DNA from: a virus
IMG/VR virus record: IMGVR_UViG_3300043410_001892
Coordinates: 183,145-247,144 of that record
Direction: 5' to 3' (one strand)
DNA: 64,000 nucleotides
Part shown: positions 148-39,409 of the stretch, piece after piece
How the letters are laid out: each line of letters starts with the position of its first letter
Numbering within the stretch: the stretch's first letter is position 1
Made by a program: the position numbers and the translations under genes
The notes under the pieces: generated by a model
Seen by the model: only the letters and a program-made list of their open reading frames with translations
Databases searched by the model: none
What the model was told of the DNA's origin: nothing

Positions 148-594
148 CTATTTGTTAACTCTAAGGATTCCAAAGTCTTGATCAGAAATATCAATGCCTT
201 CTGCTGCTGCAGCATTGTAACAGATATCTCTATACCAACGACCAATAATTTCATCTTCTGGATCGCCATCAAAACCATAACCTTCTTGTTTTAATTTTTC
301 AATCCAATGATCATTCCAGTCAATTTCAAAAAAACCGTTTCTAACATTGTCTGGATTAACTCTAAAACCAATTACATCTACCCATGGTTCTTTTTTTAGT
401 GTTGCTTTTTCTTTTTCACTTAATTGCGGTTTTTCAGTTTTTGGTTTAGCTTTTGGTTTAGTTTTAGCTTTTGGTTTTTTAACTTTAGGCACTGGGGGAT
501 TGCTAGTTACTACTGGTAATCCCCGACTATCAATTTGATTATCGTTAGTACCAAATATTTTGTTTATTAGTTTATCAAACATTATGTTGCCCAC
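148..594 (-). CDS. Hypothetical protein with Lys/Pro-rich basic N-terminal segment
   Basis: 148-aa ORF co-directional with and overlapping the queE-like gene. KPKAKTKPKAKPK basic repeat. No recognisable catalytic motif. Confidence 0.5.
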   Translation of the reverse strand: MGNIMFDKLINKIFGTNDNQIDSRGLPVVTSNPPVPKVKKPKAKTKPKAKPKTEKPQLSEKEKATLKKEPWVDVIGFRVNPDNVRNGFFEIDWNDHWIEKLKQEGYGFDGDPEDEIIGRWYRDICYNAAAAEGIDISDQDFGILRVNK

Positions 595-1424
595 TCATTT
601 TTAAATAACGGAACTTGCAATCGATCACTGTATCGCAGTCCGTGTTTCAGTGCTAAATCTGCCACTGCTCTATTGTTTAGATTATACACAGCTTCAACCC
701 CGCCTACTGGCATCAAATATACATGCCCATTGAACCCTGCAGCTTTATATAATTCAATTTTTTCTAATGCTTCGTTTGCATCTTCTTCTGTTGCTATTAC
801 AAATTTTAGATATACGTCACTACCTGCAAACTTATATTGTACAACTGCGTCTGGAACTATAGCTTTTTCAGCAGGTTCACCGCTTACACTTAATTTTGGA
901 CTAACTGAGAACGTTACCCATCTTTTATTATTATAATATAAGTAATCTAAAAACTCTTTAGATAGTCGTTGTGTACCATTTGTTTCAAATGTAATATTTT
1001 GCACAGTTGATAATAACGGATGATCAAGTAATTGCGGATATAGTTTTTGCCATCCAAGTAATAAGGGTTCACCGCCTGTAATGACTAAGTGAATACCTTC
1101 CCAACTATTATTAGGCAGTAATTCAATCATTCTATTTGCAATTTCATCAATAGTCATAGTTGGACTAAGATGTTTAAACTTTGGATGCCAACTTGCATAG
1201 CTATCACAACCTGTAGTAACAAGTGGTAATGAATCATATGTTGGATATTGCTCACTGTTAGCAGCAATAGCATTTGCTTGGATACTTAGTTTACCTTTTT
1301 CCATACCAAATCCTGCACAAGTAAAATTGCAGCCATACGTGCGTAAGAATATTGAAGGTACACCCATAAAGCGACCTTCGCCTTGCATAGAATAAAATAA
1401 TTCTGATACTTTAATTTGTGACAT
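582..1424 (-). CDS. queE: 7-carboxy-7-deazaguanine synthase (QueE-like radical SAM)
   Basis: N-terminal FYSMQGEG...PSIFLRTYGCNFTC and ITGGEPLL motifs typical of QueE. Sits in an operon with folE. Confidence 0.75.
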   Translation of the reverse strand: MSQIKVSELFYSMQGEGRFMGVPSIFLRTYGCNFTCAGFGMEKGKLSIQANAIAANSEQYPTYDSLPLVTTGCDSYASWHPKFKHLSPTMTIDEIANRMIELLPNNSWEGIHLVITGGEPLLLGWQKLYPQLLDHPLLSTVQNITFETNGTQRLSKEFLDYLYYNNKRWVTFSVSPKLSVSGEPAEKAIVPDAVVQYKFAGSDVYLKFVIATEEDANEALEKIELYKAAGFNGHVYLMPVGGVEAVYNLNNRAVADLALKHGLRYSDRLQVPLFKNEWAT

Positions 1425-1432
1425 ATTATTCC

Positions 1433-1699
1433 TTAAACATTGTTTAATCCAATTCTAGCATATCCTAGTGCTGCTTTGAGTTCTCTACGCCCTTCACGGT
1501 TGTCTAACTCGTTCTCTAAGATAGTAAGATCATTTTGTAACTTTTGAAGATATGGCTTACCATTACGTTCCATTCTATCAGCTGGATAGTTTTTAATTCT
1601 GTCCGCATACCGTTGAATCTCATCTTTTTTGAGCTGGATTCTATGCTCAAGATTCTCTTTAGTTTTTTTCATTGTAAGCCTCTTTACGAAATTCTTCAC
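1433..1699 (-). CDS. Hypothetical protein (88 aa, charged/coiled)
   Basis: ORF packed between the queE and folE genes on the same strand. Confidence 0.45.
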   Translation of the reverse strand: MKNFVKRLTMKKTKENLEHRIQLKKDEIQRYADRIKNYPADRMERNGKPYLQKLQNDLTILENELDNREGRRELKAALGYARIGLNNV

Positions 1700-2102
1700 A
1701 ATCTTTAACAGCAGACTTTAATGCTTCTGCATAGTTGAAAGCCTGCTGTCTAGACATTATTGTTGATTGTTGATATTTAAGATAGCCATCAATCCACAAA
1801 TTCCATGTCATTTTAATACGATGATGTAATCCATTTAGAAAACTTAACCAACCATATGCAATACTACTTAAAAATGCATTTTCAATTTTATAAGTTTCTG
1901 ATAAATCAAATGGTCTATCCCAATATGCAGTTTTTTGTGTAGTAAAGGTAGTTACTGTAACGTTAAATTCATCAGCTTCTACCATAAACTCAATATTGTC
2001 ATCATCGTTACCGCACTCGCATTTAATTGCGTACATTTTACTGTTACCCCAGTCATTTGTTTGCATAATGCCTACTGCTGGAATTTGTGGTTCTAGTTTC
2101 AT
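1659..2102 (-). CDS. Hypothetical protein (147 aa)
   Basis: ORF in the deazaguanine operon with no motif recognised. Overlaps neighbours by short out-of-frame overlaps typical of phage coupling. Confidence 0.5.
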   Translation of the reverse strand: MKLEPQIPAVGIMQTNDWGNSKMYAIKCECGNDDDNIEFMVEADEFNVTVTTFTTQKTAYWDRPFDLSETYKIENAFLSSIAYGWLSFLNGLHHRIKMTWNLWIDGYLKYQQSTIMSRQQAFNYAEALKSAVKDCEEFRKEAYNEKN

Positions 2103-2110
2103 AAAGCTCC

Positions 2111-2842
2111 TTACTTGTTAACAATACTCATAAATTCTGAGCGTGTTGTTGGATCGTTTTTAAATGCACCACCAAGTTTACTTGTAACAGTAGTGCTACC
2201 TGTATCTTCAACACCTCTCGCAGCCACACAATAGTGTTTAGCATCAATTACTACTGCAATATTGTCAGTGCCTAAAATATATTCTAAAGCATGAAAAACT
2301 TGTTCTGTTAGTCTTTCTTGTACTTGTGGACGTTTTGCAAAATATTCTACAACTCTGTTTATTTTACTTAGACCAAGTACAACTTTATTTGGAATGTAAC
2401 CAACAGTAGCATAACCATCAATTACTACAAAATGATGTTCGCAATTTGATTGTACGTTGACATTGCGTTCAACAACCATTTCGTTATAACTCATTTTATT
2501 TTCAATAGTTGTACACTTTGGAAATGACGCATAATCAAGACCCCAAAATATTTCATTGACAAACATTTTTGCAACACGTTTTGGTGTGTCATTTAAACTA
2601 TCATCTGTTAAATCTAATTTTAATAGCATCATAATATCTTTGAATTTTAATTCAATCATGCTAATTTGTACATCTCTTGTTAACTCTGATAATAATACTT
2701 CTGTACCGTCAGATAACATTTGAACAGTAGAAATACCATCAACTACTGCATCATTCATAGGCGTCTCTACACCTAATTTTACTAAGTATTCGTGTACTTC
2801 TTTTCCTAATACTGGATCTATTTTTAATTTATTATAACTCAT
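2111..2842 (-). CDS. folE: GTP cyclohydrolase I (FolE)
   Basis: Conserved FolE blocks: NEMVVERNV, SNCEHHFVVIDG, SKINRVVEYFAKRPQVQERLTEQ, KHYCVAARGVEDTGSTTVTS. Confidence 0.85.
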   Translation of the reverse strand: MSYNKLKIDPVLGKEVHEYLVKLGVETPMNDAVVDGISTVQMLSDGTEVLLSELTRDVQISMIELKFKDIMMLLKLDLTDDSLNDTPKRVAKMFVNEIFWGLDYASFPKCTTIENKMSYNEMVVERNVNVQSNCEHHFVVIDGYATVGYIPNKVVLGLSKINRVVEYFAKRPQVQERLTEQVFHALEYILGTDNIAVVIDAKHYCVAARGVEDTGSTTVTSKLGGAFKNDPTTRSEFMSIVNK

Positions 2843-2865
2843 GCTGGTTCCTTATGTAAGCGTAT

Positions 2866-2894
2866 ATTATAAAGTAATGTTTATTTTTTGTCAA
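2866..2894 (-). promoter_or_regulatory. Sigma70-type early promoter (TTGACA-17-TATAAT) driving the folE-queE operon
   Basis: Reverse strand reads TTGACA aaaaataaacattactt TATAAT with an exact 17-nt spacer, 24 nt upstream of the folE ATG. Confidence 0.6.
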
Positions 2895-3032
2895 GTAATT
2901 TTAGCTCATCTTCTAAGTATTCAATGTATTCAGTTAGACCTGATATCATCTTTGAATTACCTGAACTTTGATGTTTAGCTAGATCTGATTTTACTTGATT
3001 GATTTTTTCTTTCAACTCTTCTTTAGTTAAGC

Positions 3033-3350
3033 TCATTTTAATTCCGTCCTTGCTAATTCTAAAAACATTTGATATTTTTCGTAGGCTTGTTTGACAGCTG
3101 GAACTTTTTCTCTAACAAACATATCTTCGTAATATGTTTTATTCCATTCTTCACATTTTTCAGCTTTCACTATTAACTCTTCAAAACTTCGTTGGTTTAT
3201 CTTAACAGTTAGTAGTTGCTCATATCGATAATCATTGGCACTTATATAGTGTTGATCTAAACAAACTTCCCTAATTCCATATTTTCCAAATTTTTCAACT
3301 ATATTAGACATTATTTCTTCCAAAAGTCTTCCCAGGGAAACACAATCCAA
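3033..3350 (-). CDS. Hypothetical protein (105 aa)
   Basis: ORF overlapping the end of the gpt-like gene. No motifs. Confidence 0.45.
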   Translation of the reverse strand: MDCVSLGRLLEEIMSNIVEKFGKYGIREVCLDQHYISANDYRYEQLLTVKINQRSFEELIVKAEKCEEWNKTYYEDMFVREKVPAVKQAYEKYQMFLELARTELK

Positions 3351-3805
3351 GTATCTTCTTCACGTTTGTCAATTTCTTCAACAGCAAAGTCAACTTCTAC
3401 TGTACTACCTAAATTATTAAAGATTGTAGCAAACTTAACATTTTCATGCCAAACATTATCGGCCCATCTTGGATCAGTTGGTATACAATTTGATTGCCAA
3501 TCTTGCATAATCCAGTTAAATGTTTCACCTGAATCGTTTATATCATCAACAATTAAGATATTTTCAGATTCAAATGCATCGTTAGCTAACCAACAGTTAG
3601 ATTCAGTATATACATGGTCACGTAAACTAACGTGTATTACGTACATCTTAATTCCTAAGTATTGACTTAACATATTGGCGGGTGTAACCCCGCCTCTACT
3701 AATACCAATAATATATTCTGGAGTCCAACCGCTGGCATTAATTTGACGAGCAAGTTCTAAAACTGCACCTTCAAGTTGTTGCCAAGAGTAATGTACTTTT
3801 TTCAT
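3311..3805 (-). CDS. Xanthine-guanine phosphoribosyltransferase-like (Gpt-type type I PRTase)
   Basis: Collinear with E. coli Gpt: YSWQQLEGAVLELARQI, IIGISRGGVTPANML, the PRPP-binding LIVDDINDSGETF, and C-terminal DTWIVFPWED. Confidence 0.75.
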   Translation of the reverse strand: MKKVHYSWQQLEGAVLELARQINASGWTPEYIIGISRGGVTPANMLSQYLGIKMYVIHVSLRDHVYTESNCWLANDAFESENILIVDDINDSGETFNWIMQDWQSNCIPTDPRWADNVWHENVKFATIFNNLGSTVEVDFAVEEIDKREEDTWIVFPWEDFWKK

Positions 3806-4272
3806 TCTGGTTCCTTTGGTAATAAGCTATCTGCATAGCAAACTGAGTAAACTAATTTTAGATTTTCGTATGCTTTATCTAAACCTGGGTATTCTTCACA
3901 TAGTTTTCTAAAAGCATTCCATTCTGGAAACTTATCTACAAAATCTGTTCCATAACTTGGACTAACCGGACTCCAACCTCCGCCAGTTCCGGTATACACG
4001 TAATTTGAATTATTAGTAGTATTATAAAACATTGAACCAGTGTACGATCCACTAAAGGTAGAACCAGTGTAAGGACCATTAGTGTTGTTACTAATAGTAA
4101 TAGTATCACCAGCACTCATTGACGATGATATACCATAACTACCAGTTACACTCATACCAGTTAAATAAGATGACAACGTGTCTGTTGTAAATGCTGGAAT
4201 AGAAGTTGTACTGTATAATGATTCTGGAAGTGTAATTGTATCAATTGAATTTGTCATATAATTTCTCTGCAT
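3802..4272 (-). CDS. Hypothetical S/T/G-rich protein (156 aa)
   Basis: Low-complexity Ser/Thr/Gly/Tyr-rich ORF between the glycosyltransferase-like and gpt-like genes. Confidence 0.4.
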   Translation of the reverse strand: MQRNYMTNSIDTITLPESLYSTTSIPAFTTDTLSSYLTGMSVTGSYGISSSMSAGDTITISNNTNGPYTGSTFSGSYTGSMFYNTTNNSNYVYTGTGGGWSPVSPSYGTDFVDKFPEWNAFRKLCEEYPGLDKAYENLKLVYSVCYADSLLPKEPE

Positions 4273-5374
4273 TAAAAAATGCCTTGGTTAAATAATCAGC
4301 TTGTTGCTGAATATATGTTTTCATTGAATCGTAATTTTCAATATAATCGATAATTTTGTTACATAACTCAAAACTATGATCCTCATATGCTTTAAAGTCT
4401 TCTGTCCATTCTGATGGATATTTAAAATGGAACTTATACATTTCTTTATAGCTTAATCTATCTGGTACCATAGGTATAGCATCAAGCATTACTCCTTCAT
4501 AACAGCTAATACCAAGTGTTTCTTGTAAGTTTGCACTAAACACAATCTTTGCTTCGCTTAATAATGTATGATATTCATCTTTAGTTAGTTTTTCATCTTG
4601 GCAAACTACAAAATCGTATTGTGGCATTTGCTTTGCTATTGCTCTAAATATTTCAACTTGTTTCTCTGGAGCAATACGATGTGGAAAAACAATCAAATCA
4701 CGTTTTTCTTTATTTTTAAAAGGAGCTAATGTGTCTGTTAAGTATTCCATTGGCCAGCCAGTACGTACAATACTACCATCGTCATATACTTCATCCCAGT
4801 CTTCGTCGTACCATGGATTTTCACTAGGATATCCACTATTGATAACTTTGTCAAAGAACATTTTAACATGGAATTCTGTAGCAAAGTAATTATGAGTAAA
4901 TGCAGTGTATAATGCTCGTTCGGTATGTTTAACCCAAGCATCTTTGATAGCACCTAAGAAGTCATGTTCATCGTAATTACCAGCATGCCATAGTCCATGA
5001 AATTGCCAATTAAACCCCATTAAGTCATTGATGTATTTTAATTGAAGTATTGAAGTATTCCAAGCATCTGTAAATAAGAAATGATCGTCAGGTGTTGTTT
5101 TGCCTTCAAATTGCTTTAATAAGAATGTACATAATTGTGAACTTTTCCAGTAGTTAGTATCTACAAAGTTTAAGAATGCGCCTTGTGTGACTTCTGTTGA
5201 TTGACGATAACCATCTATTTGGCAAATATTAAATTTATCATTAAGATTGTCTTGTAGTTGCTGAGGTATATGAGTATGCCATTGACCAGTATAACGTGTG
5301 TCTAAAGGTTCTACAGGAAATATCCATATTGTAGGTTTCATAATGTATTCCAAGTAATTGAAAGAAAGCCCCAA
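4241..5374 (-). CDS. Putative GT-B fold glycosyltransferase (T4 alpha-glucosyltransferase-like C-terminal half)
   Basis: C-terminal half has a GT4/GT-B-like pattern: FPHRIAPEKQVEIF...AKIVFSANLQETLGISCYEGVMLDAIPMVPD. This resembles the E...LE.G..G.IPV block of T4 agt. Confidence 0.45.
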   Translation of the reverse strand: MGLSFNYLEYIMKPTIWIFPVEPLDTRYTGQWHTHIPQQLQDNLNDKFNICQIDGYRQSTEVTQGAFLNFVDTNYWKSSQLCTFLLKQFEGKTTPDDHFLFTDAWNTSILQLKYINDLMGFNWQFHGLWHAGNYDEHDFLGAIKDAWVKHTERALYTAFTHNYFATEFHVKMFFDKVINSGYPSENPWYDEDWDEVYDDGSIVRTGWPMEYLTDTLAPFKNKEKRDLIVFPHRIAPEKQVEIFRAIAKQMPQYDFVVCQDEKLTKDEYHTLLSEAKIVFSANLQETLGISCYEGVMLDAIPMVPDRLSYKEMYKFHFKYPSEWTEDFKAYEDHSFELCNKIIDYIENYDSMKTYIQQQADYLTKAFFNAEKLYDKFN

Positions 5375-5401
5375 TTGGAGCTTTCAAGTTAAAGAGGTTG
5401 A

Positions 5402-5650
5402 TTAAGATTTTTTAAAGTTTTTTGGTCTAACGCCGTTAGGCCATGGTTTATTACCTTGATAAGGTTTACGTGGGCGTTTGCTTGCTAAATACGCACCGTA
5501 TGATTTAGTGTCCTTGCGATATAAATCTGCTGGATCAAACTTACGCATTTCAATTCTACAAAAATCATGAAATGCTTCGAGATCTTCAAAGATCTTAACA
5601 ACATCAGGACGTGATTCAAAGTATGAGAATGATTTGTAATTTTTAGCCAT
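5402..5650 (-). CDS. Hypothetical basic protein (82 aa)
   Basis: ORF with no motifs. Possible weak hairpin downstream at 5378-5400. Confidence 0.4.
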   Translation of the reverse strand: MAKNYKSFSYFESRPDVVKIFEDLEAFHDFCRIEMRKFDPADLYRKDTKSYGAYLASKRPRKPYQGNKPWPNGVRPKNFKKS

Positions 5651-5651
5651 T

Positions 5652-5861
5652 TTATTTTTTTCCGTTTCTTAATATAGTTGTATGGGTACGAAGTGAAAGT
5701 AATGTTTTTAATTCGTGCAATTCACATCTTAGTTTTGCTATTTTTGGATCGTTTTTTTTAGTATTATTGATGTAATAATATTTTTGTTCAAACAGTTTTA
5801 TCTCTTGACGCTTTTGCTCAATCTTTTTTTGTAGCATTGTTTTAGATATATAATGTTTCAT
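5652..5861 (-). CDS. Hypothetical protein (69 aa)
   Basis: Small ORF packed between neighbours. Confidence 0.35.
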   Translation of the reverse strand: MKHYISKTMLQKKIEQKRQEIKLFEQKYYYINNTKKNDPKIAKLRCELHELKTLLSLRTHTTILRNGKK

Positions 5862-6220
5862 GAATATTTAATAAATGAACCATTTTCATTATCTTCAGAT
5901 ATTTCAATCCAAATCTCTCTATCTGAATATTTCTGTGAAATAGTTTGATGTAACTCATTACTAATCATTTCACAGCTCTTATTATCTAGTGATAGTATAG
6001 CATCACTATACAATAAAGTCAACCAACGTTTAAATTGGATAAACTCAATATCTCTGTCAGCGTGTGTAACTTCAATCCAAACTTTAAAATGAAATATATG
6101 TCTATGTGGATATCCTAAGAACTCTACATCCTCTAATTTTGGATCAGTTAGAGCAGCAGGATAACAGTGTATTCCTTCTTTTGAAAATGTGACAAAAATA
6201 AATTTGCTAGTTGTTTCCAT
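5858..6220 (-). CDS. Small PTPS/T-fold-like protein (possible second QueD-like)
   Basis: 120 aa, the size of QueD. FSKEGIHCYP...LGYPHRHIFHFKV gives a His-x-His pattern reminiscent of PTPS zinc ligands. Weak. Confidence 0.3.
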   Translation of the reverse strand: METTSKFIFVTFSKEGIHCYPAALTDPKLEDVEFLGYPHRHIFHFKVWIEVTHADRDIEFIQFKRWLTLLYSDAILSLDNKSCEMISNELHQTISQKYSDREIWIEISEDNENGSFIKYS

Positions 6221-6890
6221 GTTTTTTCTTATTTTGATGTGCTAAAAGTCTAGCCTCTGACCAAGGTTTGCCTTTCTCAGGGCCGGTTTTTTTTTGTGAT
6301 TCTGCGGCTAAAATTCGTGCTTCAGACCACGGTTTACCTTTTAATGATTTACTTATTTTTTCTTTATGAATATCAGTTAACATTACACCTGTTTTTGATT
6401 TACTAATTTTTAATTTAGTTTCATTACGATGTAACTTCCCCTCCATACCTGATTTAAGAGTTCCATTTTTAATTTTAGTTTCAATAATTTTCCGTTTAGT
6501 GTCAGCTGGCAATTTTTTACCTAAATGCGATTTTGATAAGTTTTTTCGATGCTCTTCACTCTTAACTCTATTCTTCCACGATGGCGGTTTGTTATCTAAA
6601 CAAATGTTCGTTAATATGCCATTTTCTTCAAATCCAATTCTGCCGTATTTAAGAATTTCTTCAGTTTCTAATTTGTAAGCGTCGTCTTCATTAATGATAT
6701 TATCTATAACTTTTTTGATTATAGGAGGCATATTATGTTGAATTAAAAATTGTATGCGATAAAACTTATGACGATTTAACGTATTTTCTGCTGTTTCGGT
6801 TAAATGATCAAAACATCTGTTGGCTGTTCCTTTACCTATATAAAATGGTAAGTTATCTCTAGGATCTATATAATGATAAATGTAATACAT
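6207..6890 (-). CDS. Free-standing GIY-YIG homing endonuclease with NUMOD3-like repeats
   Basis: N-terminal YIYHYIDPRDNLPFYIGKGTANRCFDH matches the GIY-YIG motif. C-terminal repeated KGKPWSEAR(I/L)LA resembles NUMOD3 DNA-binding repeats, as in I-TevI/Seg enzymes. Confidence 0.85.
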   Translation of the reverse strand: MYYIYHYIDPRDNLPFYIGKGTANRCFDHLTETAENTLNRHKFYRIQFLIQHNMPPIIKKVIDNIINEDDAYKLETEEILKYGRIGFEENGILTNICLDNKPPSWKNRVKSEEHRKNLSKSHLGKKLPADTKRKIIETKIKNGTLKSGMEGKLHRNETKLKISKSKTGVMLTDIHKEKISKSLKGKPWSEARILAAESQKKTGPEKGKPWSEARLLAHQNKKKHGNN

Positions 6891-6908
6891 GGTATTCTCC
6901 TTGTAGTT

Positions 6909-6916
6909 TATTTATC
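6909..6916 (-). promoter_or_regulatory. T4-late-like promoter motif GATAAATA upstream of the homing endonuclease gene
   Basis: Reverse strand reads GATAAATAaactacAAGGAGaataccATG: motif, RBS and start in phase, 26 nt from motif to ATG. Confidence 0.45.
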
Positions 6917-6948
6917 AAACGTTACCCATATCATTTGCTGTTTCATAT

Positions 6949-7476
6949 TTAACTCTTTAATGTATCGTTGTTGTAAGCATCCCAACCTGTAAACATATTA
7001 GGATTTTGTAATGTCTGTAAACTATGTGTCCAAATACCTGGATTAGTTGCATTAAATGTAACATCATCGAGTTTAATCATAGTATTAGTATTCCATTTGT
7101 GTATATTTGCAATTGGCATTCTAATTTGTGGAATAAACTTTTCATATGAGCATAGCTCAGTTTTTACATTAAAGTCATTTAATACAGTATATGGAATATC
7201 TAATGAACAAGTTTTACCTGTTTTTAAAAAATACTCAATAGTATGAGCCCAAGACATCCATGATCCGGCATTTTGTGGATTAAAGCTATGGTTTGCACCA
7301 AAGAATATATGATCTACATCGTCTTCAAGATATATCTCAATTGCTTCTATGGTTTGAATACCTACTACAAACAGTGTTTTCATACCGTATGCAGGTGTAT
7401 GTTCTACTTCATTGCCTGTAAAAAACTTTACAGGCGTTGTAATTTCGTTTTTATATGGTCTTATCATTTTTAACAC
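6949..7476 (-). CDS. Hypothetical protein (175 aa)
   Basis: ORF between the homing-endonuclease gene and dpdA. No motifs. Confidence 0.5.
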   Translation of the reverse strand: MLKMIRPYKNEITTPVKFFTGNEVEHTPAYGMKTLFVVGIQTIEAIEIYLEDDVDHIFFGANHSFNPQNAGSWMSWAHTIEYFLKTGKTCSLDIPYTVLNDFNVKTELCSYEKFIPQIRMPIANIHKWNTNTMIKLDDVTFNATNPGIWTHSLQTLQNPNMFTGWDAYNNDTLKS

Positions 7477-9109
7477 TTTCTTCTAAGTTAGTTAATACTT
7501 CTATTTGTTTTTCGGTAAACTCTTCAGAATCAACATCATCTTCGTTATCACCGAAGTCAAAATATTTATTCAATATTGTTTGATGGTTATAAATTTTAAG
7601 TCCGGTATTTCCTCTAGTACCAGGAATTGTCATCCATAGTCTATCGTATTTTTCAATTATATCTAAAGATTCTTGTTTGTTCTTAGTTGCAAATATTGAA
7701 TCAATTAGATCACGTACAATAATTGTATCATGAACTTCTTTTATTAGCATATTTGGAAATACATTATTGTCGTATGCTTGATTTGCCTCTTGTACAGCAT
7801 TCACATGGCTCCAAACATTGTGACCCATTAAAATTGCATAACTAAAACTATCCCAACTTGTTCTACCAACTTTGTTAACTTTATTAACATCGCCAAGTGT
7901 AATCCAATACTTAGGATCATTTAAGTATTTAGGGTCTTTAAATAACGCTACATGGTCAATATTATCAGCATTGACTTCTGTCCAATTAGGAACACCTTGT
8001 TTATAAATGCAAATATCTTTAATTTCTACTTGATCAATAATTGGACTAGATTTAAATACATTAAAGATTTTATCTTGAATAACTGCATCTTTAAATAATC
8101 TAGTATCCGTTGAATATTTTTTATCATCAACGCTTGGAACCATTCGATAAACCCATTTAGATCTATCTGTTAGTTCAGTATTGATGTATACTTGTCCATT
8201 TGCTGTAGCTAAAAACGGACTAGCACAATCATAACTAATTGTAAAGTTAGGATTATGATATTTTCGTACTGCTCGTTGAATATCAGTTAGCAAACAAGCC
8301 CATTCGAGCTTGCTTGTTCCTAAAAAGTGCATCCAGTCTTGTTTTCCTTGTTCTAATAAACCGTCATGTATAATAGTAATAAGTCTTCTAAGAACTAAGG
8401 ATAAATCGCACATATTCTGACCACCCATTGCCCATCCATTAAATGCTTTATCGCCATAGATGTTAGGATCACAATATTTTTTCATACGATCATACCAATC
8501 ATTTGCATCATCGTGTGTTTCGCCTTGCAGTACATTAAGGAATTTACATTTACCAGTTCTATTTTGGATAAAGTATTCATTATTGATATCTGTACCTGCT
8601 ACTGCATCAGCATATGAGTTAACACCTGTTGCCTTACGCCCAGCCGGGCTACGTGCTACCCAAGCCGGAATATCAAGACACATGCCATAATCCATTAGCT
8701 CATCCATCCAACGCAATACTTGTTCACGTTTCTTTTGTGCTTTAGGACAATTAGGATTTTTCCAATCAGCTGGCCAGACACCTTTACCAATTTGGAATCC
8801 TCCTGAGTCGCCTAATACAAAACTTGTAGTTCTATCTCTGTTACGAAACATGTCTTCACTATCGTCAAACTTGTCTAAATCTAAGTTTGCATGTCCAGCT
8901 GAATACAAGCACCATTTATAATAAAATTGCCCTTTCTCTGGTTCCAAGTAGTTAAGACTTTCTACACCTGCAGAAAAAGATGCAGGAATTCTTGCTGGAT
9001 CTACATACTGATTATATCTCTGTTTTCCAATAAACGTAGCATAAAAGCCCGACGTTGCTGGTAGAAACACAGCGTAATCATTCTGTGTTGCTGTTAGGTT
9101 CCTGTTCAT
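7451..9109 (-). CDS. dpdA: DpdA-like DNA-guanine transglycosylase (TGT superfamily)
   Basis: VLGDSGGFQIGKG matches the TGT catalytic DSGGFQ block. 552-aa TGT-sized protein co-located with folE/queE. Confidence 0.65.
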   Translation of the reverse strand: MNRNLTATQNDYAVFLPATSGFYATFIGKQRYNQYVDPARIPASFSAGVESLNYLEPEKGQFYYKWCLYSAGHANLDLDKFDDSEDMFRNRDRTTSFVLGDSGGFQIGKGVWPADWKNPNCPKAQKKREQVLRWMDELMDYGMCLDIPAWVARSPAGRKATGVNSYADAVAGTDINNEYFIQNRTGKCKFLNVLQGETHDDANDWYDRMKKYCDPNIYGDKAFNGWAMGGQNMCDLSLVLRRLITIIHDGLLEQGKQDWMHFLGTSKLEWACLLTDIQRAVRKYHNPNFTISYDCASPFLATANGQVYINTELTDRSKWVYRMVPSVDDKKYSTDTRLFKDAVIQDKIFNVFKSSPIIDQVEIKDICIYKQGVPNWTEVNADNIDHVALFKDPKYLNDPKYWITLGDVNKVNKVGRTSWDSFSYAILMGHNVWSHVNAVQEANQAYDNNVFPNMLIKEVHDTIIVRDLIDSIFATKNKQESLDIIEKYDRLWMTIPGTRGNTGLKIYNHQTILNKYFDFGDNEDDVDSEEFTEKQIEVLTNLEESVKNDKTI

Positions 9110-9488
9110 CTTTTTCCTGTGTTAGTTTTTTAATTTCGTTTTCTAAAACTGTGATTTTGTTTTGTAATTCTTTTACAAGATAATGCTCTGTAACATTATT
9201 AGTACTTCTAGCATCAATTTGATTATTTAACCAAGTATTATAGATGTAATTTGTCGCCGGATTGCGCTGAAATTGTTCTAAGGTATAGATTTTTGACCTT
9301 ACTTCATCTATTTGCCATTTTATATTTTGAAAGTCGTTATAAAAACTCTCAAATGGTCCAAATGCGCCAGTTGTTTGATCTAAACTGGCTAATACTGCTA
9401 TTTTATTGTATGATTCTCTAATAGAATCATTATCAGAAGTATAAATTACATCTAATAGTTTTAATGCTTTTCTAAAATCAGTAATCAT
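9078..9488 (-). CDS. Hypothetical coiled-coil protein (136 aa)
   Basis: ORF overlapping the dpdA start by 32 nt. Charged C-terminus. Confidence 0.45.
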   Translation of the reverse strand: MITDFRKALKLLDVIYTSDNDSIRESYNKIAVLASLDQTTGAFGPFESFYNDFQNIKWQIDEVRSKIYTLEQFQRNPATNYIYNTWLNNQIDARSTNNVTEHYLVKELQNKITVLENEIKKLTQEKDEQEPNSNTE

Positions 9489-10225
9489 TTTGTTTGTGCA
9501 GGTAATGTATAAGTGTAAACTGAAACGCCACTTTCAACTACAATTTGAAGCATTCCCATATCTGATATTTTCATAGTAATATTGCCATCAAGATTTAAAA
9601 TACTTAATACTTGAGGAATTGACCATGCAAACGTATTTTTTAATCCAACTGGAACATTTGGTTGAAATACTAAAGAACCTGCATGTGAGTTTGCATCACC
9701 AAACTTAAATATAAGGTTGTTATTTTCTGTTGTTACTTGAAAGAACGTTTCTTCAGTATGTGCAGCAGCTTGAAACTTTAATTTTGTTATACTTGCTGAC
9801 GACGGAGTAAATTCAATGTCATATGATATCTGTACTTTATTTTTTGGTGTTTTTACTTTTTCTTCAATAATAGATCGATTCATAAATCGATAATGATTTT
9901 GAAAATCGCCTGATGCATTATTAAAGTGTAACCCAGTTGGAGTAGGTTCACCATCTCTTGCTTCTAATGTCAATGTAATAACTGCATCTTTTTTGTATTC
10001 TGGACATTTAAGATGTAGATCTAGTTTGTTTAAGTTTGGAAAACCAAATACAAACCCTTCATGTAGTCCGTATACTAGACCGTTTGTTTTACCACTCATA
10101 AGTACTGATCTATCTTCAGACTGTGATTCGACTTCAATATAGTCTGCATGGGTTGTAATTTTAGCTAAAGGTAAAAAACCTAATGAATTTGTATGTGCTA
10201 CAACGTCTTGTAAAAATGATTTCAT
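9485..10225 (-). CDS. Hypothetical protein (246 aa), possibly sliding-clamp-like
   Basis: Size and position next to the DNA polymerase are compatible with a gp45-like clamp. Similarity to T4 gp45 is not convincing by eye. Confidence 0.35.
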   Translation of the reverse strand: MKSFLQDVVAHTNSLGFLPLAKITTHADYIEVESQSEDRSVLMSGKTNGLVYGLHEGFVFGFPNLNKLDLHLKCPEYKKDAVITLTLEARDGEPTPTGLHFNNASGDFQNHYRFMNRSIIEEKVKTPKNKVQISYDIEFTPSSASITKLKFQAAAHTEETFFQVTTENNNLIFKFGDANSHAGSLVFQPNVPVGLKNTFAWSIPQVLSILNLDGNITMKISDMGMLQIVVESGVSVYTYTLPAQTK

Positions 10226-10244
10226 GTTATTCTCCTAGTGTTTT

Positions 10245-10273
10245 ATTATAATATAGTTTGTTCAGTAAGTCAA
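10245..10273 (-). promoter_or_regulatory. Sigma70-type early promoter (TTGACT-17-TATAAT)
   Basis: Reverse strand reads TTGACT tactgaacaaactatat TATAAT, followed by AGGAG and the ATG of the 9485-10225 gene. Confidence 0.55.
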
Positions 10274-10280
10274 GTTTATT

Positions 10281-12941
10281 TTAATCAAAGTCAAAAAATA
10301 AGTTAGATAAGTTTGTTTCAGAAGTTTCAATTAGTTTCCAGTTTAGTATACCAATTAAGTTGTCTAATTTATTATCAATGATAGTTTTTTCCATTTCTCT
10401 ATGATCAAATGGTAGATCTTTAAACCATTGTGGTAATCTTAGTTCATCTACCGGGTATGCAACACTTACATAACCTAATGGATTGGGTTTAAGTTTACAT
10501 ACAATTACTTTTGCACCATCAGTAATGCTCATAGAATACTTGTCACCGTTCATACGTTTTAAAGAATTCCAGTTTGCACTTGCTCTAACATGCCCAGGCA
10601 TATTAACTTTACCAATTTTTGCCTCTTTTTCAGTATATGAAGTAATGCTGTTAGCTCGTTTAGGTGATCCTTTTTCCCATCCTGGTCTTGATTTAAATAA
10701 GGTTCTAAACTCACTAATAAAGTTTAGCACAGATTGTTCTGATTCACCGTCTAGCACCTTAGTTAGTATATCAGATAAGAAGTCTTGGATAAATTCTGGA
10801 GTATCACTACGCTTTAAATCTAAACCCATAGCTTTAATTTCACCAGTTTTACCATGTGTATCCTTACGTTTACCTTCTTTGTCGTATACTAATACTGCAT
10901 ATCGCTTTTTAGTAATAAACAATGATTTACTTCCTACGATCTCACGACCAGCTTTAATTACTTCACCGCGTGTTTTAGGACAATGAAATGCATCTAACAT
11001 AAATTGTTGGAATGTATTATTCACTTGATCACTGATTTGATCATACAACTGTACAATAGTTTCTTTAGTCCATGGAATAGTTCCAGCATCAATATCTTTT
11101 TTCAATGTATTATATGCTGAAAAGTAACAAGAGTCAGTATCACCATATATAATAGCTTTGCCTAAATGATTATATTCACCTGTAATAATTTCATTTACCT
11201 TTGCAGCCATATGTTTAGCTACTTGTCTACCAGTTAGTGTAGTAGATTGACCAATACGCTTATCAAAGAATCTACAACCTGGATTAAGAATTGCACCGTA
11301 TAAACTATTTAGGTTAATCTTCTTAACTAGTTGTCGTTTATCCCAGTATTCTTCTTCAATTTTATTACCAGAAGCAATGGCTTCTTTCAGTTTCTTCTGC
11401 ATATCTTTACGTTCTGAATACCAACGTTTAAGTAGACCTGAAATAACACCTTCTTTTTCGTATGTAAATATAGTTCCATTGGCTGACATGACCCATGGTT
11501 GATTACTTTCAAACACTAGTCTATATACTTCTGCAGCACTCAATACATTACTATCGCCGTTTTCCCAGTCAACTACGATATCAGTACCTATTTCTTCATT
11601 CATTACTGAAGTATATTCAAGTGTACCAAATAATCCTTCCCATGCAGCAGCAAATGATTTACCTTTAGCTATTTGTAAGCTAATATATTCGTCAGTTGCT
11701 ATTGGTCTTAATTGTCCTACAATAGTTTCCGGACCCATATTTAATGCTCTAATAACACTAGGATATAGTGAATTGATATCAAGTGATCCAACCCAATCGT
11801 GAATACCTTCTTTTGGATATGCAACATACGCACCGGCAGCTTGAACTGCATCTTCTCTGCGTCTATTTGGAACAACAAAACCTCTATTATGTGCTTCGTT
11901 GATAATAGCTTGCTCTGTTACTGCAACTGCGCCCATGGTTGTTTGTAATAATACAGTATTTTCATGTGCAACAGTATTAGCCAAATCGATAAACTTTAGT
12001 TTTTTATCAAGACGATCTAATAGCATAGTATCTTGTCTGTTATATTCAATGAATGTTTTAAAATCATTGTTGTATAACTGATCAAGTGTACCTTCGTATT
12101 GTGTTTTTCTATCACCTAACTCGTATTCTGCAATAGCATCGAGTCTAAAACTATGTCGTTCTTCATATGTGTACTTTTGATATAGTTGTAAACTATCTAA
12201 ATGGATACGTCCAATAAGATCATATGTTACTGCAGTTTTGCCATAGCGTTCATATTCACGTCTTTTTGGAAATTGATCAAATAAACAGAATCTGCGGGTA
12301 TCATCTTTTGATAATACTTTAGTAACACGATTTACTGTATATGGAATATCAAACCCTTCGCTATTCCAACCACTTAAAATGTCAGCATCATCGATTAGTG
12401 TAAGAAACGTATCTAATAATTCTGCTTCAGTTTTAAATAAAAAAGTATTTGGGAACTCTTTTACTTGTTCAGTGGCTTCCTCCATGGTTAATGTCTTAGG
12501 AGGAATAGCTAAACAGATAAGAGTTTCCAACCATTGTAAGTGTACAGCAATTGAAGTGATTGGCATAAATGCATCATCAGGTGTTGCATAGCCACGTTCT
12601 GGGTCAAAATCAACCTCGATATCAAAAAACGCAACATTTAACTTAGGTGCGTCATGATTGAGGTAATTTTCAGATAAATGTGTGAAAATTGGATTGATAT
12701 CAGCTTCAAACGTTTTTGAATTTGCGTGTATAGAAAGTTCTTTTCTATACTCTTTTGTATTTTTACAGACAATACGTGATACTGGATCACCGTAAATTGA
12801 TTGATATCTACCTTTTGGGTCTTTATAATATAATGTGTGTTTAACAGGTGAATCTTTAAACTCTCTTTCACCTTTTTCATTTCTTTCTACAATTTTAATG
12901 ACATCGTTACTTCTATCAAAGTATGCATCTACATAACTCAT
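10281..12941 (-). CDS. Family B DNA polymerase (T4 gp43-like)
   Basis: Exo I FDIEVD, motif A DINSLYPS, KINLNSLYGA, motif C YGDTDS. N-terminus is collinear with T4 gp43 (IVERNEKGERE). Confidence 0.95.
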   Translation of the reverse strand: MSYVDAYFDRSNDVIKIVERNEKGEREFKDSPVKHTLYYKDPKGRYQSIYGDPVSRIVCKNTKEYRKELSIHANSKTFEADINPIFTHLSENYLNHDAPKLNVAFFDIEVDFDPERGYATPDDAFMPITSIAVHLQWLETLICLAIPPKTLTMEEATEQVKEFPNTFLFKTEAELLDTFLTLIDDADILSGWNSEGFDIPYTVNRVTKVLSKDDTRRFCLFDQFPKRREYERYGKTAVTYDLIGRIHLDSLQLYQKYTYEERHSFRLDAIAEYELGDRKTQYEGTLDQLYNNDFKTFIEYNRQDTMLLDRLDKKLKFIDLANTVAHENTVLLQTTMGAVAVTEQAIINEAHNRGFVVPNRRREDAVQAAGAYVAYPKEGIHDWVGSLDINSLYPSVIRALNMGPETIVGQLRPIATDEYISLQIAKGKSFAAAWEGLFGTLEYTSVMNEEIGTDIVVDWENGDSNVLSAAEVYRLVFESNQPWVMSANGTIFTYEKEGVISGLLKRWYSERKDMQKKLKEAIASGNKIEEEYWDKRQLVKKINLNSLYGAILNPGCRFFDKRIGQSTTLTGRQVAKHMAAKVNEIITGEYNHLGKAIIYGDTDSCYFSAYNTLKKDIDAGTIPWTKETIVQLYDQISDQVNNTFQQFMLDAFHCPKTRGEVIKAGREIVGSKSLFITKKRYAVLVYDKEGKRKDTHGKTGEIKAMGLDLKRSDTPEFIQDFLSDILTKVLDGESEQSVLNFISEFRTLFKSRPGWEKGSPKRANSITSYTEKEAKIGKVNMPGHVRASANWNSLKRMNGDKYSMSITDGAKVIVCKLKPNPLGYVSVAYPVDELRLPQWFKDLPFDHREMEKTIIDNKLDNLIGILNWKLIETSETNLSNLFFDFD

Positions 12942-25036: not shown

Positions 25037-25070
25037 TATTAGATCCTTGTGTAGTAGTTAATAAAGCAAT

Positions 25071-34451: not shown

Positions 34452-34459
34452 TATTTATC
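34452..34459 (-). promoter_or_regulatory. T4-late-like promoter motif GATAAATA
   Basis: Reverse strand reads aGATAAATAtaaaactAAAGGAGattatat ATG, 22 nt upstream of the ATG at 34430. Overlaps the stop of the upstream gene. Confidence 0.45.
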
Positions 34460-38866: not shown

Positions 38867-39409
38867 ATGAAATGGCAAATAGATAAAGAGTTCCATTTTG
38901 AAATGGGGCATAGAGTATGGGCACAAAAATTAGAACATGCTGAGTTAAGTATTACAACTGATTGTGCGTGTAAACATTTACACGGGCATAGTTATGCAAT
39001 TAAAGTGTTTTTAGGATCTGATAGTTTAGATCAATCAGAAATGGTTACTGACTTTAAAAATTTAAACTTTATGAAACAATTTGTAGATGATGTATTAGAT
39101 CATAAGTTTATGATCGATGTTAATGATCCAAACTTCAAATTAATTACAGGTCAAGATTGGGAAAATAATCCAACAACAGATCATCCATTTGCAAACTTTA
39201 TAAACCTTGGTAGTTATAACTGGGTTGGTTTATCAGATGATGAAAAATTACATCTTAATAGTTTTGTATTAGTAGATTTTGTACCAACTAGTGAAAATAT
39301 TTGTAGATATTTGTTTGAATATGCACAATCACGTATTGGTGATTTAGCAAAAGTTACTGCAGTTGAGCTGTGGGAAACAAAGAAAAGTCATTGTAGATAT
39401 ACAGGATAA
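38867..39409 (+). CDS. queD: 6-carboxy-5,6,7,8-tetrahydropterin synthase (QueD/PTPS family)
   Basis: FHFEMGHRV...CACKHLHGHSY (the CxxxHGH zinc site) and DHKFMIDVND are QueD hallmarks. Confidence 0.8.
   Translation: MKWQIDKEFHFEMGHRVWAQKLEHAELSITTDCACKHLHGHSYAIKVFLGSDSLDQSEMVTDFKNLNFMKQFVDDVLDHKFMIDVNDPNFKLITGQDWENNPTTDHPFANFINLGSYNWVGLSDDEKLHLNSFVLVDFVPTSENICRYLFEYAQSRIGDLAKVTAVELWETKKSHCRYTG

What the first reader, a model, noticed from the sequence alone, without database searches (positions are those of the whole stretch)
4241..5374. GT-B glycosyltransferase-like gene next to the deazaguanine genes: possible second DNA hypermodification
The C-terminal half shows the GT-B/GT4 signature (R.APEK...E.LG.S..EG..L.AIP.V) with local resemblance to T4 alpha-glucosyltransferase. 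In T-even phages such enzymes glucosylate hmC in DNA. In the same window there are a dCMP deaminase and a MazG-like NTP pyrophosphatase, both part of a T4-style pyrimidine-modification toolkit. The phage might therefore combine a glycosylated pyrimidine with a deazaguanine. Alternatively the GT could decorate the deazaguanine side chain.
Basis: inference. Interest (0 to 1): 0.6.

Follow-up and report, generated by a model that had tools for sequence, protein, structure and literature searches.

The report
Sugar transferase inside deazaguanine DNA-modification cluster
This phage gene encodes a genuine sugar-transferring enzyme that is almost always found beside the genes that replace guanine in phage DNA with 7-deazaguanine, which suggests an undescribed sugar-bearing version of that modified base and not a T4-style sugar on cytosine.

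Summary
The ORF is real. Its likely CDS is 4241-5341 (-), 366 aa, starting at the ATG rather than the upstream TTG. A confident AlphaFold model (pLDDT 88) matches GT-B retaining glycosyltransferases of the GT4/GT5 type. The donor-binding residues R222, K227 and E274-x7-E282 are invariant.

No similarity to T4 alpha- or beta-glucosyltransferase was found. The window has no dCMP hydroxymethylase homologue.

Of 102 related loci, 93 carry DpdL on the same strand (median gap 263 nt). Five of the other nine are contig-edge cases. The loci include PA5oct, Phosso, ACP17, X1, BCSR5 and a four-gene Methylobacterium prophage operon. Distant branches add a PIG-L deacetylase, and one of them a Gat-QueC fusion.

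Best reading: a tailoring enzyme that glycosylates the deazaguanine. The acceptor atom, the sugar, and whether it acts on DNA or on the free base are all unknown. No paper in the searchable library describes this link. Its alternative (decorating the deazaguanine) is supported by gene context only.

The parts
4241..5341 (-). GT-B, GT4-like glycosyltransferase CDS (366 aa from the ATG at 5341). This is the finding itself.
   Evidence: ORF. Homologues start at MKPTIWIF. AlphaFold model pLDDT 88. Foldseek PDB top hits are GT4/GT5 enzymes. R222, K227, E274 and E282 are invariant; with distant homologues added, E282 is nearly invariant.
5364..5385 (-). Terminator-like hairpin between the upstream small gene and the GT start. 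It overlaps the TTG of the mechanical ORF.
   Evidence: 9-bp stem, 5 G-C pairs, then a TTTC tail.
5402..5650 (-). 82-aa basic protein (pI 9.8) of unknown function, conserved directly upstream of the GT in this phage clade.
   Evidence: Found in 76 of 84 related loci, always just upstream of the GT. pI. No Pfam or PHROG hit.
5858..6220 (-). DpdL (QueD-like T-fold; proposed CDG decarboxylase giving 7-deazaguanine).
   Evidence: FLGYPHRHIF matches the published DpdL signature LxxxHRHxF (PMC10516641). phrog_17812 at 9e-33. Aligns with the phiST and ACP17 DpdL proteins.
6207..6890 (-). GIY-YIG/NUMOD3 homing endonuclease inserted in the cluster. A passenger, not part of the pathway.
   Evidence: Pfam hits. 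Detected in only 9 of 84 related loci, at varying positions.
6949..7467 (-). About 172-aa conserved protein of unknown function ('o175') between DpdA and DpdL.
   Evidence: Present in 64 of 84 related loci and in ACP17. No informative Pfam or PDB-sequence match.
7451..9109 (-). DpdA-family DNA-guanine transglycosylase (552 aa; subfamily not assigned).
3802..4272 (-). 156-aa Ser/Thr-rich protein of unknown function directly downstream of the GT.
   Evidence: Found in 26 of 84 related loci. No Pfam hit.
3311..3805 (-). Type I purine phosphoribosyltransferase (xanthine/guanine PRT-like).
   Evidence: PF00156 at 3.6e-15. NCBIfam xanthine PRT at 1.8e-16, below its cutoff. Found in 49 of 84 related loci and in PA5oct gp321.
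2111..2842 (-). FolE (GTP cyclohydrolase I).
   Evidence: PF01227 at 1.6e-59.
582..1424 (-). QueE (7-carboxy-7-deazaguanine synthase, radical SAM).
   Evidence: phrog_2076 at 7.7e-54. Radical_SAM hit just below the Pfam cutoff.
38867..39409 (+). QueD/PTPS (6-carboxytetrahydropterin synthase), encoded away from the cluster.
   Evidence: PF01242 at 1.7e-28.

Best explanation
The gene encodes an NDP-sugar-dependent, GT4-like (retaining-type) GT-B glycosyltransferase. It is a dedicated tailoring enzyme of a phage 7-deazaguanine DNA-modification pathway.

Proposed flow: FolE, QueD and QueE convert GTP to 7-carboxy-7-deazaguanine. DpdL (the published proposal is a decarboxylase) converts that to 7-deazaguanine. 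The DpdA-family transglycosylase swaps this base for guanine in phage DNA. The GT then transfers a sugar from a host nucleotide-sugar onto the deazaguanine. I think it most likely acts on DNA after insertion, less likely on the free base before insertion. The product would be a glycosylated deazaguanine that has not been described. The neighbouring phosphoribosyltransferase plausibly recycles the released guanine into GMP and GTP.

Shown here: the fold, the intact donor-binding residues, the identity of the neighbours, and a very strong, lineage-spanning gene linkage. Inferred: that the acceptor is the deazaguanine, which atom is glycosylated, which sugar is used, and whether the reaction occurs on DNA.
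For: Fold and motifs. Distant family members reach Pfam Glycos_transf_1.

Context in the window: QueE, FolE, PRT, GT, DpdL and DpdA all lie on one strand. No QueC, QueF or Gat homologue is present.

Linkage: in 102 loci with a full-length GT match, 93 carry DpdL on the same strand. The median gap is 263 nt and 89 lie within 1.5 kb. Five of the nine exceptions are contig edges. The linkage holds in lineages whose DNA polymerase is only 26-52% identical to the window's, or that have no polymerase nearby: PA5oct, Phosso, ACP17, X1, BCSR5 and MAG contigs with GT identity of 29-32%. It survives rearrangement (L019, L020, L061).

Methylobacterium prophages carry a compact operon, DpdA-like / 201 aa / DpdL / GT, with overlapping stop and start codons and no FolE or QueE within 10 kb.

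Among cultured phages, every homologue covering at least 80% of the query co-occurs with DpdL. DpdL also occurs without the GT, for example in phiST, where dDG was measured (PMC10516641). That pattern fits an optional step downstream of DpdL.

A Vibrio phage with the same DpdA subfamily but a preQ1-type pathway has an unrelated protein in the GT slot.

In the X1/BCSR5 and PhiXhv branches the GT is paired with a PIG-L-type deacetylase. In PhiXhv it also sits with a Gat-QueC fusion and a Gfo/Idh/MocA oxidoreductase. That is sugar-tailoring logic next to deazaguanine enzymes.

PA5oct DNA resists several restriction enzymes in a pattern attributed to a modified G of unknown chemistry (PMC12191111).

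Precedent: HuiG, annotated with the GT4-type domain PF13439, puts GlcNAc on N2 of a 7-deazaguanine base (PMC7439116; bioRxiv 10.64898/2026.04.15.718813).
Against: There is no chemical evidence of a sugar on any deazaguanine in DNA. 7-Deazaguanine has no hydroxyl, so the acceptor would have to be N2, O6, a carbon, or a so far unknown side chain. GT4 enzymes usually glycosylate hydroxyls. phiST makes dDG without this GT, so the GT is not needed for dDG itself. DpdL's activity has never been demonstrated (PMC10516641). The protein is acidic (pI 5.0), although the DpdA-like protein and the polymerase are acidic too. Most of the 80 IMG/VR loci belong to one broad clade, so their synteny is partly inherited. 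The independent support comes from roughly eight to ten more distant lineages. The window protein itself misses every curated family threshold.
Confidence: 0.55

Rival explanations
1. The GT acts on a small molecule of the pathway rather than on DNA. It might glycosylate the free 7-deazaguanine base (as HuiG does) or a pterin intermediate. The product could be a substrate for DpdA, a storage or export form, or an inhibitor of host enzymes.
For: HuiG is a GT4-type enzyme that N-glycosylates a free 7-deazaguanine. A tetrahydrobiopterin glucosyltransferase (5zer) is among the structural matches at rank 38. The GT is acidic. A PRTase in the cluster recalls the tubercidin route of CDG plus PRT plus decarboxylase.
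Against: The Methylobacterium operon has DpdA, DpdL and GT but no FolE, QueD or QueE, which argues against a pterin acceptor. The tightest partners are DpdA and DpdL, the DNA-insertion end of the pathway. A sugar on N2 of the free base would have to be tolerated by DpdA.
Confidence: 0.17
2. The GT has nothing to do with nucleobases. It glycosylates a protein (virion protein, DpdA or another replication protein) or a host envelope component, and it lies in the cluster only because it shares early expression.
For: Phage GT-B enzymes that glycosylate virion proteins or cell-surface polymers exist, and generic viral GT1-family proteins fill the BFVD hit list. No direct evidence for a DNA acceptor exists.
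Against: Co-expression alone does not explain linkage to DpdL and DpdA across T4-like phages, jumbo phages, a temperate prophage operon with overlapping reading frames, and rearranged clusters. The family is discrete, with 354 to 868 representative clusters at 50% identity (E at most 1e-30 and 1e-10). In every locus with enough flanking DNA it lies next to deazaguanine genes, except one short contig, L090.
Confidence: 0.12
3. One reading: a T4-style enzyme that glucosylates hydroxymethyl-cytosine or hydroxymethyl-uracil, giving a second, pyrimidine hypermodification alongside the deazaguanine.
For: It shares the GT-B fold with T4 Agt and Bgt. A dCMP deaminase and a MazG-like protein are present in the window.
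Against: No profile similarity to T4 a-gt or b-gt, and neither is in the top 50 structural hits. No gp42/ThyA-family homologue in the window. Near the GT in about 100 related loci there is only a weak hit, 23% identity at E 0.006, in two loci about 9 kb away. The dCMP deaminase and MazG are far from the GT, and in the related loci mapped the deaminase appeared in only 5 of 84 and MazG in none. PA5oct was targeted by a nuclease that hit modified-G phages and not phages hypermodified on T or C (PMC12191111).
Confidence: 0.04
4. The protein is a catalytically inert GT-fold partner, for example a scaffold or specificity subunit for DpdA.
For: It sits directly beside DpdA in PA5oct, ACP17, X1 and BCSR5. 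It gives no Pfam hit.
Against: The diphosphate-binding Arg and Lys and the first Glu of the E-x7-E motif are invariant from 25% to 77% identity, and the second Glu is nearly invariant. That would be unexpected for an inactive protein. Distant members are paired with sugar-tailoring enzymes.
Confidence: 0.05

Closest known systems
GT4/GT5 retaining GT-B glycosyltransferases (BshA, MshA, PglA, GlgM, archaeal glycogen synthase, TarM)
   Same: Two-Rossmann GT-B fold. C-terminal domain with the Arg/Lys diphosphate-binding pair and the E-x7-E motif. These are the best structural matches. Distant family members reach Pfam PF00534.
   Different: Only 10-16% identity. The window protein misses all Pfam, NCBIfam and PHROG thresholds. 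The N-terminal (acceptor) domain carries its own invariant residues (E11, R16, F56, K66, D92, H119, D127, E141). The genomic context is DNA modification, not cell-wall or thiol biosynthesis.
Phage 7-deazaguanine DNA modification system of the DpdL type (Cellulophaga phage phiST; dDG in DNA; Cui et al. 2023, PMC10516641)
   Same: FolE, QueD, QueE, DpdL (LxxxHRHxF) and a DpdA-family transglycosylase, with no QueC, placed beside the replication genes.
   Different: phiST has no GT homologue. The window cluster adds the GT, a purine PRTase and two conserved unknown proteins. The DpdA here is 552 aa, against 259 aa in phiST, and is only marginally alignable with it.
T4 alpha- and beta-glucosyltransferases (Agt, Bgt)
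   Same: Phage-encoded GT-B enzymes that use a nucleotide-sugar to decorate a modified base in DNA after replication. This is a functional analogy.
   Different: No detectable sequence or profile similarity. Not among the top structural matches. No hydroxymethylase partner. The partners here are purine, deazaguanine enzymes.
HuiG of the huimycin pathway (Kutzneria albida)
   Same: A glycosyltransferase encoded next to FolE, QueD, QueE and QueC homologues. It attaches GlcNAc to the 2-amino group of a 7-deazaguanine base, and the huimycin-family GTs are annotated PF13439, a GT4-type domain (PMC7439116; bioRxiv 10.64898/2026.04.15.718813). It shows that a GT4-type enzyme can use a deazaguanine as acceptor.
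   Different: It belongs to actinomycete secondary metabolism, acts on a free O-methylated preQ0 base, and has no DpdA.
QTMAN/GTDC1, the tRNA-queuosine mannosyltransferase (my own knowledge; not checked in a paper here)
   Same: A GT-B, GT4-like enzyme that glycosylates a 7-deazaguanine derivative within a nucleic acid.
   Different: Its acceptor is the cyclopentenediol of queuosine in tRNA, which this pathway cannot make. No match to its Pfam N-terminal family, which I recall as PF12038, appeared in the Pfam scan at E up to 0.1.

Membership tests
GT-B fold glycosyltransferase, GT4-like (Pfam Glycos_transf_1 clan) | Two Rossmann-like domains with an inter-domain cleft | tested here: met
   AlphaFold model pLDDT 88 with alternating strand/helix halves. 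Foldseek probability 1.00 to more than 40 GT-B structures.
GT-B fold glycosyltransferase, GT4-like (Pfam Glycos_transf_1 clan) | C-terminal donor-binding residues: conserved Arg and Lys plus the E-x7-E motif | tested here: met
   R222, K227, E274 and E282 are invariant among 42 close homologues. R222, K227 and E274 are invariant and E282 at least 90% conserved when the 25-47% identical phage homologues are added.
GT-B fold glycosyltransferase, GT4-like (Pfam Glycos_transf_1 clan) | Match to the curated family model above its gathering score | tested here: inconclusive
   Window protein: no PF00534 hit. PA5oct homologue: 1.1e-3, below cutoff. X1 and BCSR5 homologues: 8e-12 and 9e-11, above cutoff. 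Membership is therefore by transitive homology.
GT-B fold glycosyltransferase, GT4-like (Pfam Glycos_transf_1 clan) | Glycosyl transfer from an NDP-sugar | not testable with these tools
   Needs an enzyme assay.
T4-type DNA hmC glucosyltransferases (Agt/Bgt) | Sequence or profile homology to T4 a-gt or b-gt | tested here: not met
   hhalign probability 0.3% and 0.1%. tblastn of both proteins against the window gives E above 2.
T4-type DNA hmC glucosyltransferases (Agt/Bgt) | Co-occurrence with a dCMP or dUMP hydroxymethylase that supplies the acceptor | tested here: not met
   No gp42/ThyA-family hit in the 64-kb window. The rest of the roughly 372-kb genome was not available, so absence from the whole genome is untested.
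Phage DpdA/DpdL 7-deazaguanine DNA-modification cluster (the system this gene is filed under) | DpdA-family transglycosylase | tested here: met
Phage DpdA/DpdL 7-deazaguanine DNA-modification cluster (the system this gene is filed under) | CDG synthesis genes FolE, QueD and QueE | tested here: met
Phage DpdA/DpdL 7-deazaguanine DNA-modification cluster (the system this gene is filed under) | DpdL with the LxxxHRHxF signature, and no QueC | tested here: met
   LGYPHRHIF at 5858-6220. No QueC, QueF or Gat homologue in the window at tblastn E up to 1, nor in the 40 window ORFs scanned with Pfam. The remainder of the genome was not seen.
Phage DpdA/DpdL 7-deazaguanine DNA-modification cluster (the system this gene is filed under) | A 7-deazaguanine derivative actually present in virion DNA | not testable with these tools
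   Needs LC-MS/MS. For the relative PA5oct only restriction resistance is reported (PMC12191111).
QTMAN/GTDC1 queuosine glycosyltransferases | Match to the QTMAN N-terminal family (PF12038 as I recall it) | tested here: not met
   No such hit in the Pfam scan at E up to 0.1.

The most novel reading that the evidence does not exclude
A large, environmentally abundant group of phages carries a sugar attached to 7-deazaguanine in its DNA. The group includes the jumbo phage PA5oct, which a review I did not open lists among therapy-relevant P. aeruginosa phages. To my knowledge this would be the first glycosylated purine in any genome and a ninth, chemically distinct 7-deazaguanine derivative. This GT would be the writer. 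In sister branches (X1, BCSR5, PhiXhv) the sugar would be an amino sugar, made by GlcNAc transfer followed by PIG-L deacetylation. The GT may also be the 'missing enzyme' that explains why ACP17 dpdA plus dpdL alone gave no product in E. coli, since in ACP17 the GT gene lies between those two genes.
Probability: 0.4. Interest if true: 0.85.

Novelty: new variant of a known kind. Interest (0 to 1): 0.7.

Why it matters
Eight 7-deazaguanine derivatives are known in phage DNA, and none carries a sugar. To my knowledge all known glycosylated DNA bases are pyrimidines: glucosyl- and arabinosyl-hmC, and base J.

A conserved glycosyltransferase wired into the dpdA/dpdL cluster would extend DNA glycosylation to purines. 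It would give a concrete candidate for the chemically unidentified 'modified G' of PA5oct-like phages. That modification determines their sensitivity to END-type nucleases and their resistance to restriction enzymes.

It would also supply an untested gene for the unresolved DpdL/DpdA3 biochemistry. The family is common in metagenomes. More than 8000 clusters at 90% identity were scored, many of them on contigs of 200-390 kb.

The hypothesis is directly testable. PA5oct and ACP17 are cultured, and 7-deaza-dGTP is, to my knowledge, commercially available for making substrate DNA.

Tried and rejected
- **Family scans.** Pfam, PHROGs, NCBIfam and PDB-sequence searches of the window GT, alone and as a 42-sequence profile, gave nothing usable. 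Only structure prediction and distant homologues placed it.
- **T4 Agt/Bgt kinship.** Rejected.
- **afdb50 fold library.** It was unavailable, so the closest AlphaFold-database families, including QTMAN, could not be ranked.
- **The conserved 175-aa neighbour.** No informative PDB-profile or Pfam match. Phosso's 'glycosylase' and the Methylobacterium 201-aa protein are not its homologues.
- **Window contig.** Looking up the exact contig through the 100%-identical protein P0121 failed, so the remaining roughly 300 kb of the genome could not be searched for a hydroxymethylase or for sugar-nucleotide genes.
- **PA5oct whole genome.** I started fetching it for a ThyA/hydroxymethylase search and stopped after the first 50 kb. 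A ThyA hit would have been ambiguous and the output was very large.
- **Literature.** Searches for a glycosylated deazaguanine in DNA, or for any comment on this GT, found nothing.
- **pI as a clue to DNA binding.** Uninformative, because the whole proteome is acidic.
Full report
**1. The observation**

The minus strand carries an ORF at 4241-5374 (377 aa from a TTG). Close metagenomic homologues are 364-372 aa and begin at the position of the internal Met (MKPTIWIF...). A terminator-like hairpin at 5385-5364 overlaps the TTG. I therefore take the CDS as 4241-5341, 366 aa.

QETLGISCYEGVMLDAIPMVP). In a 42-sequence alignment R222, K227, E274 and E282 are invariant. R222, K227 and E274 stay invariant, and E282 stays at least 90% conserved, when homologues of only 25-47% identity from cultured phages are added.

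Curated libraries do not recognise the window protein: Pfam, PHROGs, NCBIfam and PDB sequences all fail. An AlphaFold model built on the alignment is confident (pLDDT 88.1, pTM 0.85). Foldseek against the PDB returns only GT-B glycosyltransferases at the top: P. abyssi glycogen synthase, BshA, GlgM, PglA, MshA and TarM, with E from 1e-8 to 1e-5. The more distant family members in Xanthomonas phage X1 and Burkholderia phage BCSR5 hit Pfam Glycos_transf_1 above its gathering score (8e-12 and 9e-11). The fold call is therefore correct.

The claimed resemblance to T4 alpha-glucosyltransferase is not reproducible. Profile comparisons with T4 a-gt and b-gt give probabilities below 1%. Neither protein is in the top 50 of the PDB or viral-structure searches.

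**2. The neighbourhood**

All genes from 582 to 12941 are on the minus strand. In transcription order they are:

- DNA polymerase and a clamp-like protein
- a 552-aa protein
- a 175-aa unknown protein
- a GIY-YIG homing endonuclease
- a 120-aa protein
- two small proteins
- the GT
- a 156-aa Ser/Thr-rich protein
- a purine phosphoribosyltransferase (PF00156)
- FolE
- QueE

The 120-aa protein carries FLGYPHRHIF. This is the DpdL signature LxxxHRHxF defined by Cui et al. 2023 for the proposed CDG decarboxylase. It aligns with the DpdL proteins of phiST and ACP17.

QueD/PTPS lies elsewhere, at 38867-39409. No QueC, QueF or Gat homologue is in the window. The set is the 'FolE, QueD, QueE, DpdL, DpdA, no QueC' type that in phiST yields 2'-deoxy-7-deazaguanine (PMC10516641).

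**3. Is the GT part of that system?**

Three independent collections say yes.

(a) Cultured phages. tblastn finds the GT in 22 records:

- In PA5oct the order is DpdA-like gp316, GT gp317, DpdL gp318..., PRT gp321, QueE gp322.
- In Sinorhizobium phage Phosso it is polymerase, clamp..., DpdL, GT..., FolE..., QueE.
- In the T4-like Acidovorax phage ACP17 it is QueD, FolE, the o175 homologue, DpdA, GT, DpdL, QueE.
- In X1 and BCSR5 the GT lies directly upstream of a TGT-like gene and near DpdL, QueE and FolE.

(b) IMG/VR. In 80 loci the order polymerase, clamp, DpdA, o175, DpdL, o82, GT, (o156), PRT, FolE, QueE is nearly universal. The linkage survives rearrangements in L019, L020 and L061.

(c) GTDB genomes. 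Of the 14 full-length homologues found in GTDB contigs, 13 lie next to DpdL; the exception is the short contig L090. They include contigs with only 29-32% GT identity. They also include Methylobacterium prophages with a compact operon of DpdA-like, a 201-aa protein, DpdL and GT. Its stop and start codons overlap, there is no FolE or QueE within 10 kb, and it is flanked by a serine recombinase, a VapE-like protein and endonuclease I.

Pooled figures: 93 of 102 loci with a full-length GT match have DpdL on the same strand. The median gap is 263 nt and 89 lie within 1.5 kb. Five of the nine exceptions are contig edges.

The relation is asymmetric. Every homologue in a cultured phage that covers at least 80% of the query co-occurs with DpdL. 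DpdL also occurs without the GT, in the phiST group, RHph_I1_18, Ahp1, D479 and others. A Vibrio phage has the same DpdA subfamily but a QueC/QueF (preQ1-type) pathway, and it has an unrelated protein in the GT position. This is the pattern expected of an optional tailoring step that acts after DpdL.

**4. Clues to the sugar**

In the X1/BCSR5 branch the cluster also contains a PIG-L-like deacetylase and a PP-loop (PAPS-reductase-like) protein.

In the PhiXhv/Ep032 branch, a distant GT homologue follows a PIG-L deacetylase (PF02585, above cutoff). It precedes a Gfo/Idh/MocA oxidoreductase. The gene annotated 'GlmS' just upstream is in fact a Gat-QueC fusion (QueC 4.4e-49 plus a GATase domain). 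Gat-QueC is a known phage deazaguanine enzyme (PMC10516641).

A GT paired with a PIG-L deacetylase is the classical arrangement for GlcNAc transfer followed by de-N-acetylation, as in MshA/MshB and BshA/BshB (my own knowledge). BshA is among the best structural matches. This hints at a HexNAc donor in those branches. The window clade has no PIG-L homologue, so its sugar is open. PA5oct has a short SDR/epimerase-like gene (gp320) in the cluster.

**5. Mechanism proposed**

The steps up to insertion follow established pathway knowledge plus the published, unproven DpdL proposal:

- GTP is converted to CDG by FolE, QueD and QueE.
- CDG is converted to 7-deazaguanine by DpdL.
- DpdA exchanges this base for guanine in DNA.

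The next steps are inference:

- The GT transfers a sugar from a host NDP-sugar to the deazaguanine.
- The PRTase plausibly salvages the expelled guanine to GMP.

The acceptor atom is unknown, and this is the main weakness, because 7-deazaguanine has no hydroxyl. The only precedent I could document is HuiG, a GT4-type enzyme that puts GlcNAc on N2 of a 7-deazaguanine base. The GT family also occurs beside a different C7 chemistry (Gat-QueC in PhiXhv). That makes a position common to all deazaguanines, or a branch-specific acceptor domain, equally conceivable.

Cui et al. could not obtain dDG from ACP17 dpdA plus dpdL in E. coli, and they suggested that further enzymes might be needed. In ACP17 the GT gene lies between those two genes.

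**6. Rivals**

- A small-molecule acceptor (free base or pterin) is possible. The Methylobacterium operon, which has no FolE or QueD, weakens the pterin version.
- A protein or envelope acceptor with merely shared expression does not explain linkage across such different genomes.
- The T4-like pyrimidine idea lacks every expected partner. It also conflicts with the modified-G behaviour reported for PA5oct.
- An inert scaffold role is unlikely given the conserved donor-site residues.

**7. Novelty**

The family is discrete. In 1.84 billion representatives at 50% identity there are 1552 hits at E up to 1e-3, 868 at up to 1e-10 and 354 at up to 1e-30. It is abundant in metagenomes: more than 8000 clusters at 90% identity were scored, many on contigs of 200-390 kb.

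Iyer et al. 2021 noted a deazaguanine system in PA5oct without mentioning a GT. The END-nuclease preprint inferred a modified G of unknown identity. None of nine literature searches found a glycosylated deazaguanine in DNA, or this gene linkage.

I rate it a new variant of a known kind: a DpdA/DpdL deazaguanine system with an added glycosyltransferase. The chemistry is still to be shown.

Noticed in passing
window 6207-6890 (-): A GIY-YIG/NUMOD3 homing endonuclease is inserted between DpdL and the 175-aa conserved gene. Most related loci lack it there, so it looks like a recent mobile-element insertion inside the modification cluster.
   Followed up: partly
window 3311-3805 (-): A xanthine/guanine-type phosphoribosyltransferase is conserved in the deazaguanine cluster (49 of 84 related loci, and PA5oct gp321). 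It could recycle guanine released by DpdA. It could instead make a deazapurine nucleotide, as in the tubercidin pathway (CDG plus PRT plus decarboxylase).
   Followed up: partly
window 6949-7467 (-) and 5402-5650 (-): Two conserved proteins of unknown function travel with the cluster. The roughly 172-aa one (invariant EVEHT, NHSF, KxDD and NPG.W motifs) is also present in ACP17. The 82-aa basic one always sits just upstream of the GT in this clade. Neither matches Pfam or PHROGs, and a PDB-sequence profile search of the larger one also found nothing informative.
   Followed up: partly
L087 (Xanthomonas phage PhiXhv-15) 2265-10692: The gene annotated 'L-glutamine-D-fructose-6-phosphate aminotransferase' is really a Gat-QueC fusion (QueC 4e-49). 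It heads a block of PIG-L deacetylase, a distant homologue of this GT and a Gfo/Idh/MocA oxidoreductase, with a GNAT fusion protein upstream. This may be a different sugar-bearing deazaguanine pathway. No DpdA was recognised within 9 kb.
   Followed up: partly
L095-L098 (Methylobacterium genomes), e.g. L098 7587-11065: Prophages carry a minimal four-gene operon with overlapping reading frames: DpdA-like, a 201-aa unknown protein, DpdL and GT. There are no FolE, QueD or QueE genes nearby, so the host presumably supplies the precursor. This is a convenient compact system for experiments.
   Followed up: partly
L086 (Rhizobium phage RHph_I1_18) 8983-10244: Here DpdL is followed by a macro-domain (Appr-1-p processing) protein instead of the GT. 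This may be another tailoring or counter-defence variant of the same pathway.
   Followed up: no
L001 (PA5oct) 13794-14312: gp320, between DpdL and the PRTase, is a short (172 aa) protein that matches only the N-terminal NAD-binding part of the epimerase/dehydratase family (6e-7). It may be a sugar-nucleotide or reductive tailoring enzyme.
   Followed up: no
window 34455-34964 (-): A 169-aa ORF matches only a fragment (profile positions 20-94 of 260) of the bacterial DNA polymerase III alpha NTPase domain. It may be a remnant or a split gene, in a phage whose main polymerase is a different type.
   Followed up: no
window 20025-21734 (-): A 569-aa protein combines DUF6267 (6.7e-39) with a weak cytidylyltransferase-like C-terminal region. 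A nucleotidyltransferase could in principle make an activated sugar or a cofactor. No link to the GT was found.
   Followed up: no
window 22757-25947, 30168-30899, 31568-32419 and 33688-34071: The window holds an unusually rich set of chaperone and host-physiology genes: a ClpB-like double AAA+ ATPase, a protein whose sequence looks DnaJ-like (not scanned against Pfam), Cpn10/GroES, PhoH and an SPFH/Band-7 protein.
   Followed up: no
window 40195-52320 (+) and 54386-59752 (+): Two giant ORFs of 4041 aa and 1788 aa lie on the plus strand. They were not examined; I presume they are structural or fibre proteins. The GC skew changes sign near 38 kb, where gene orientation switches.
   Followed up: no
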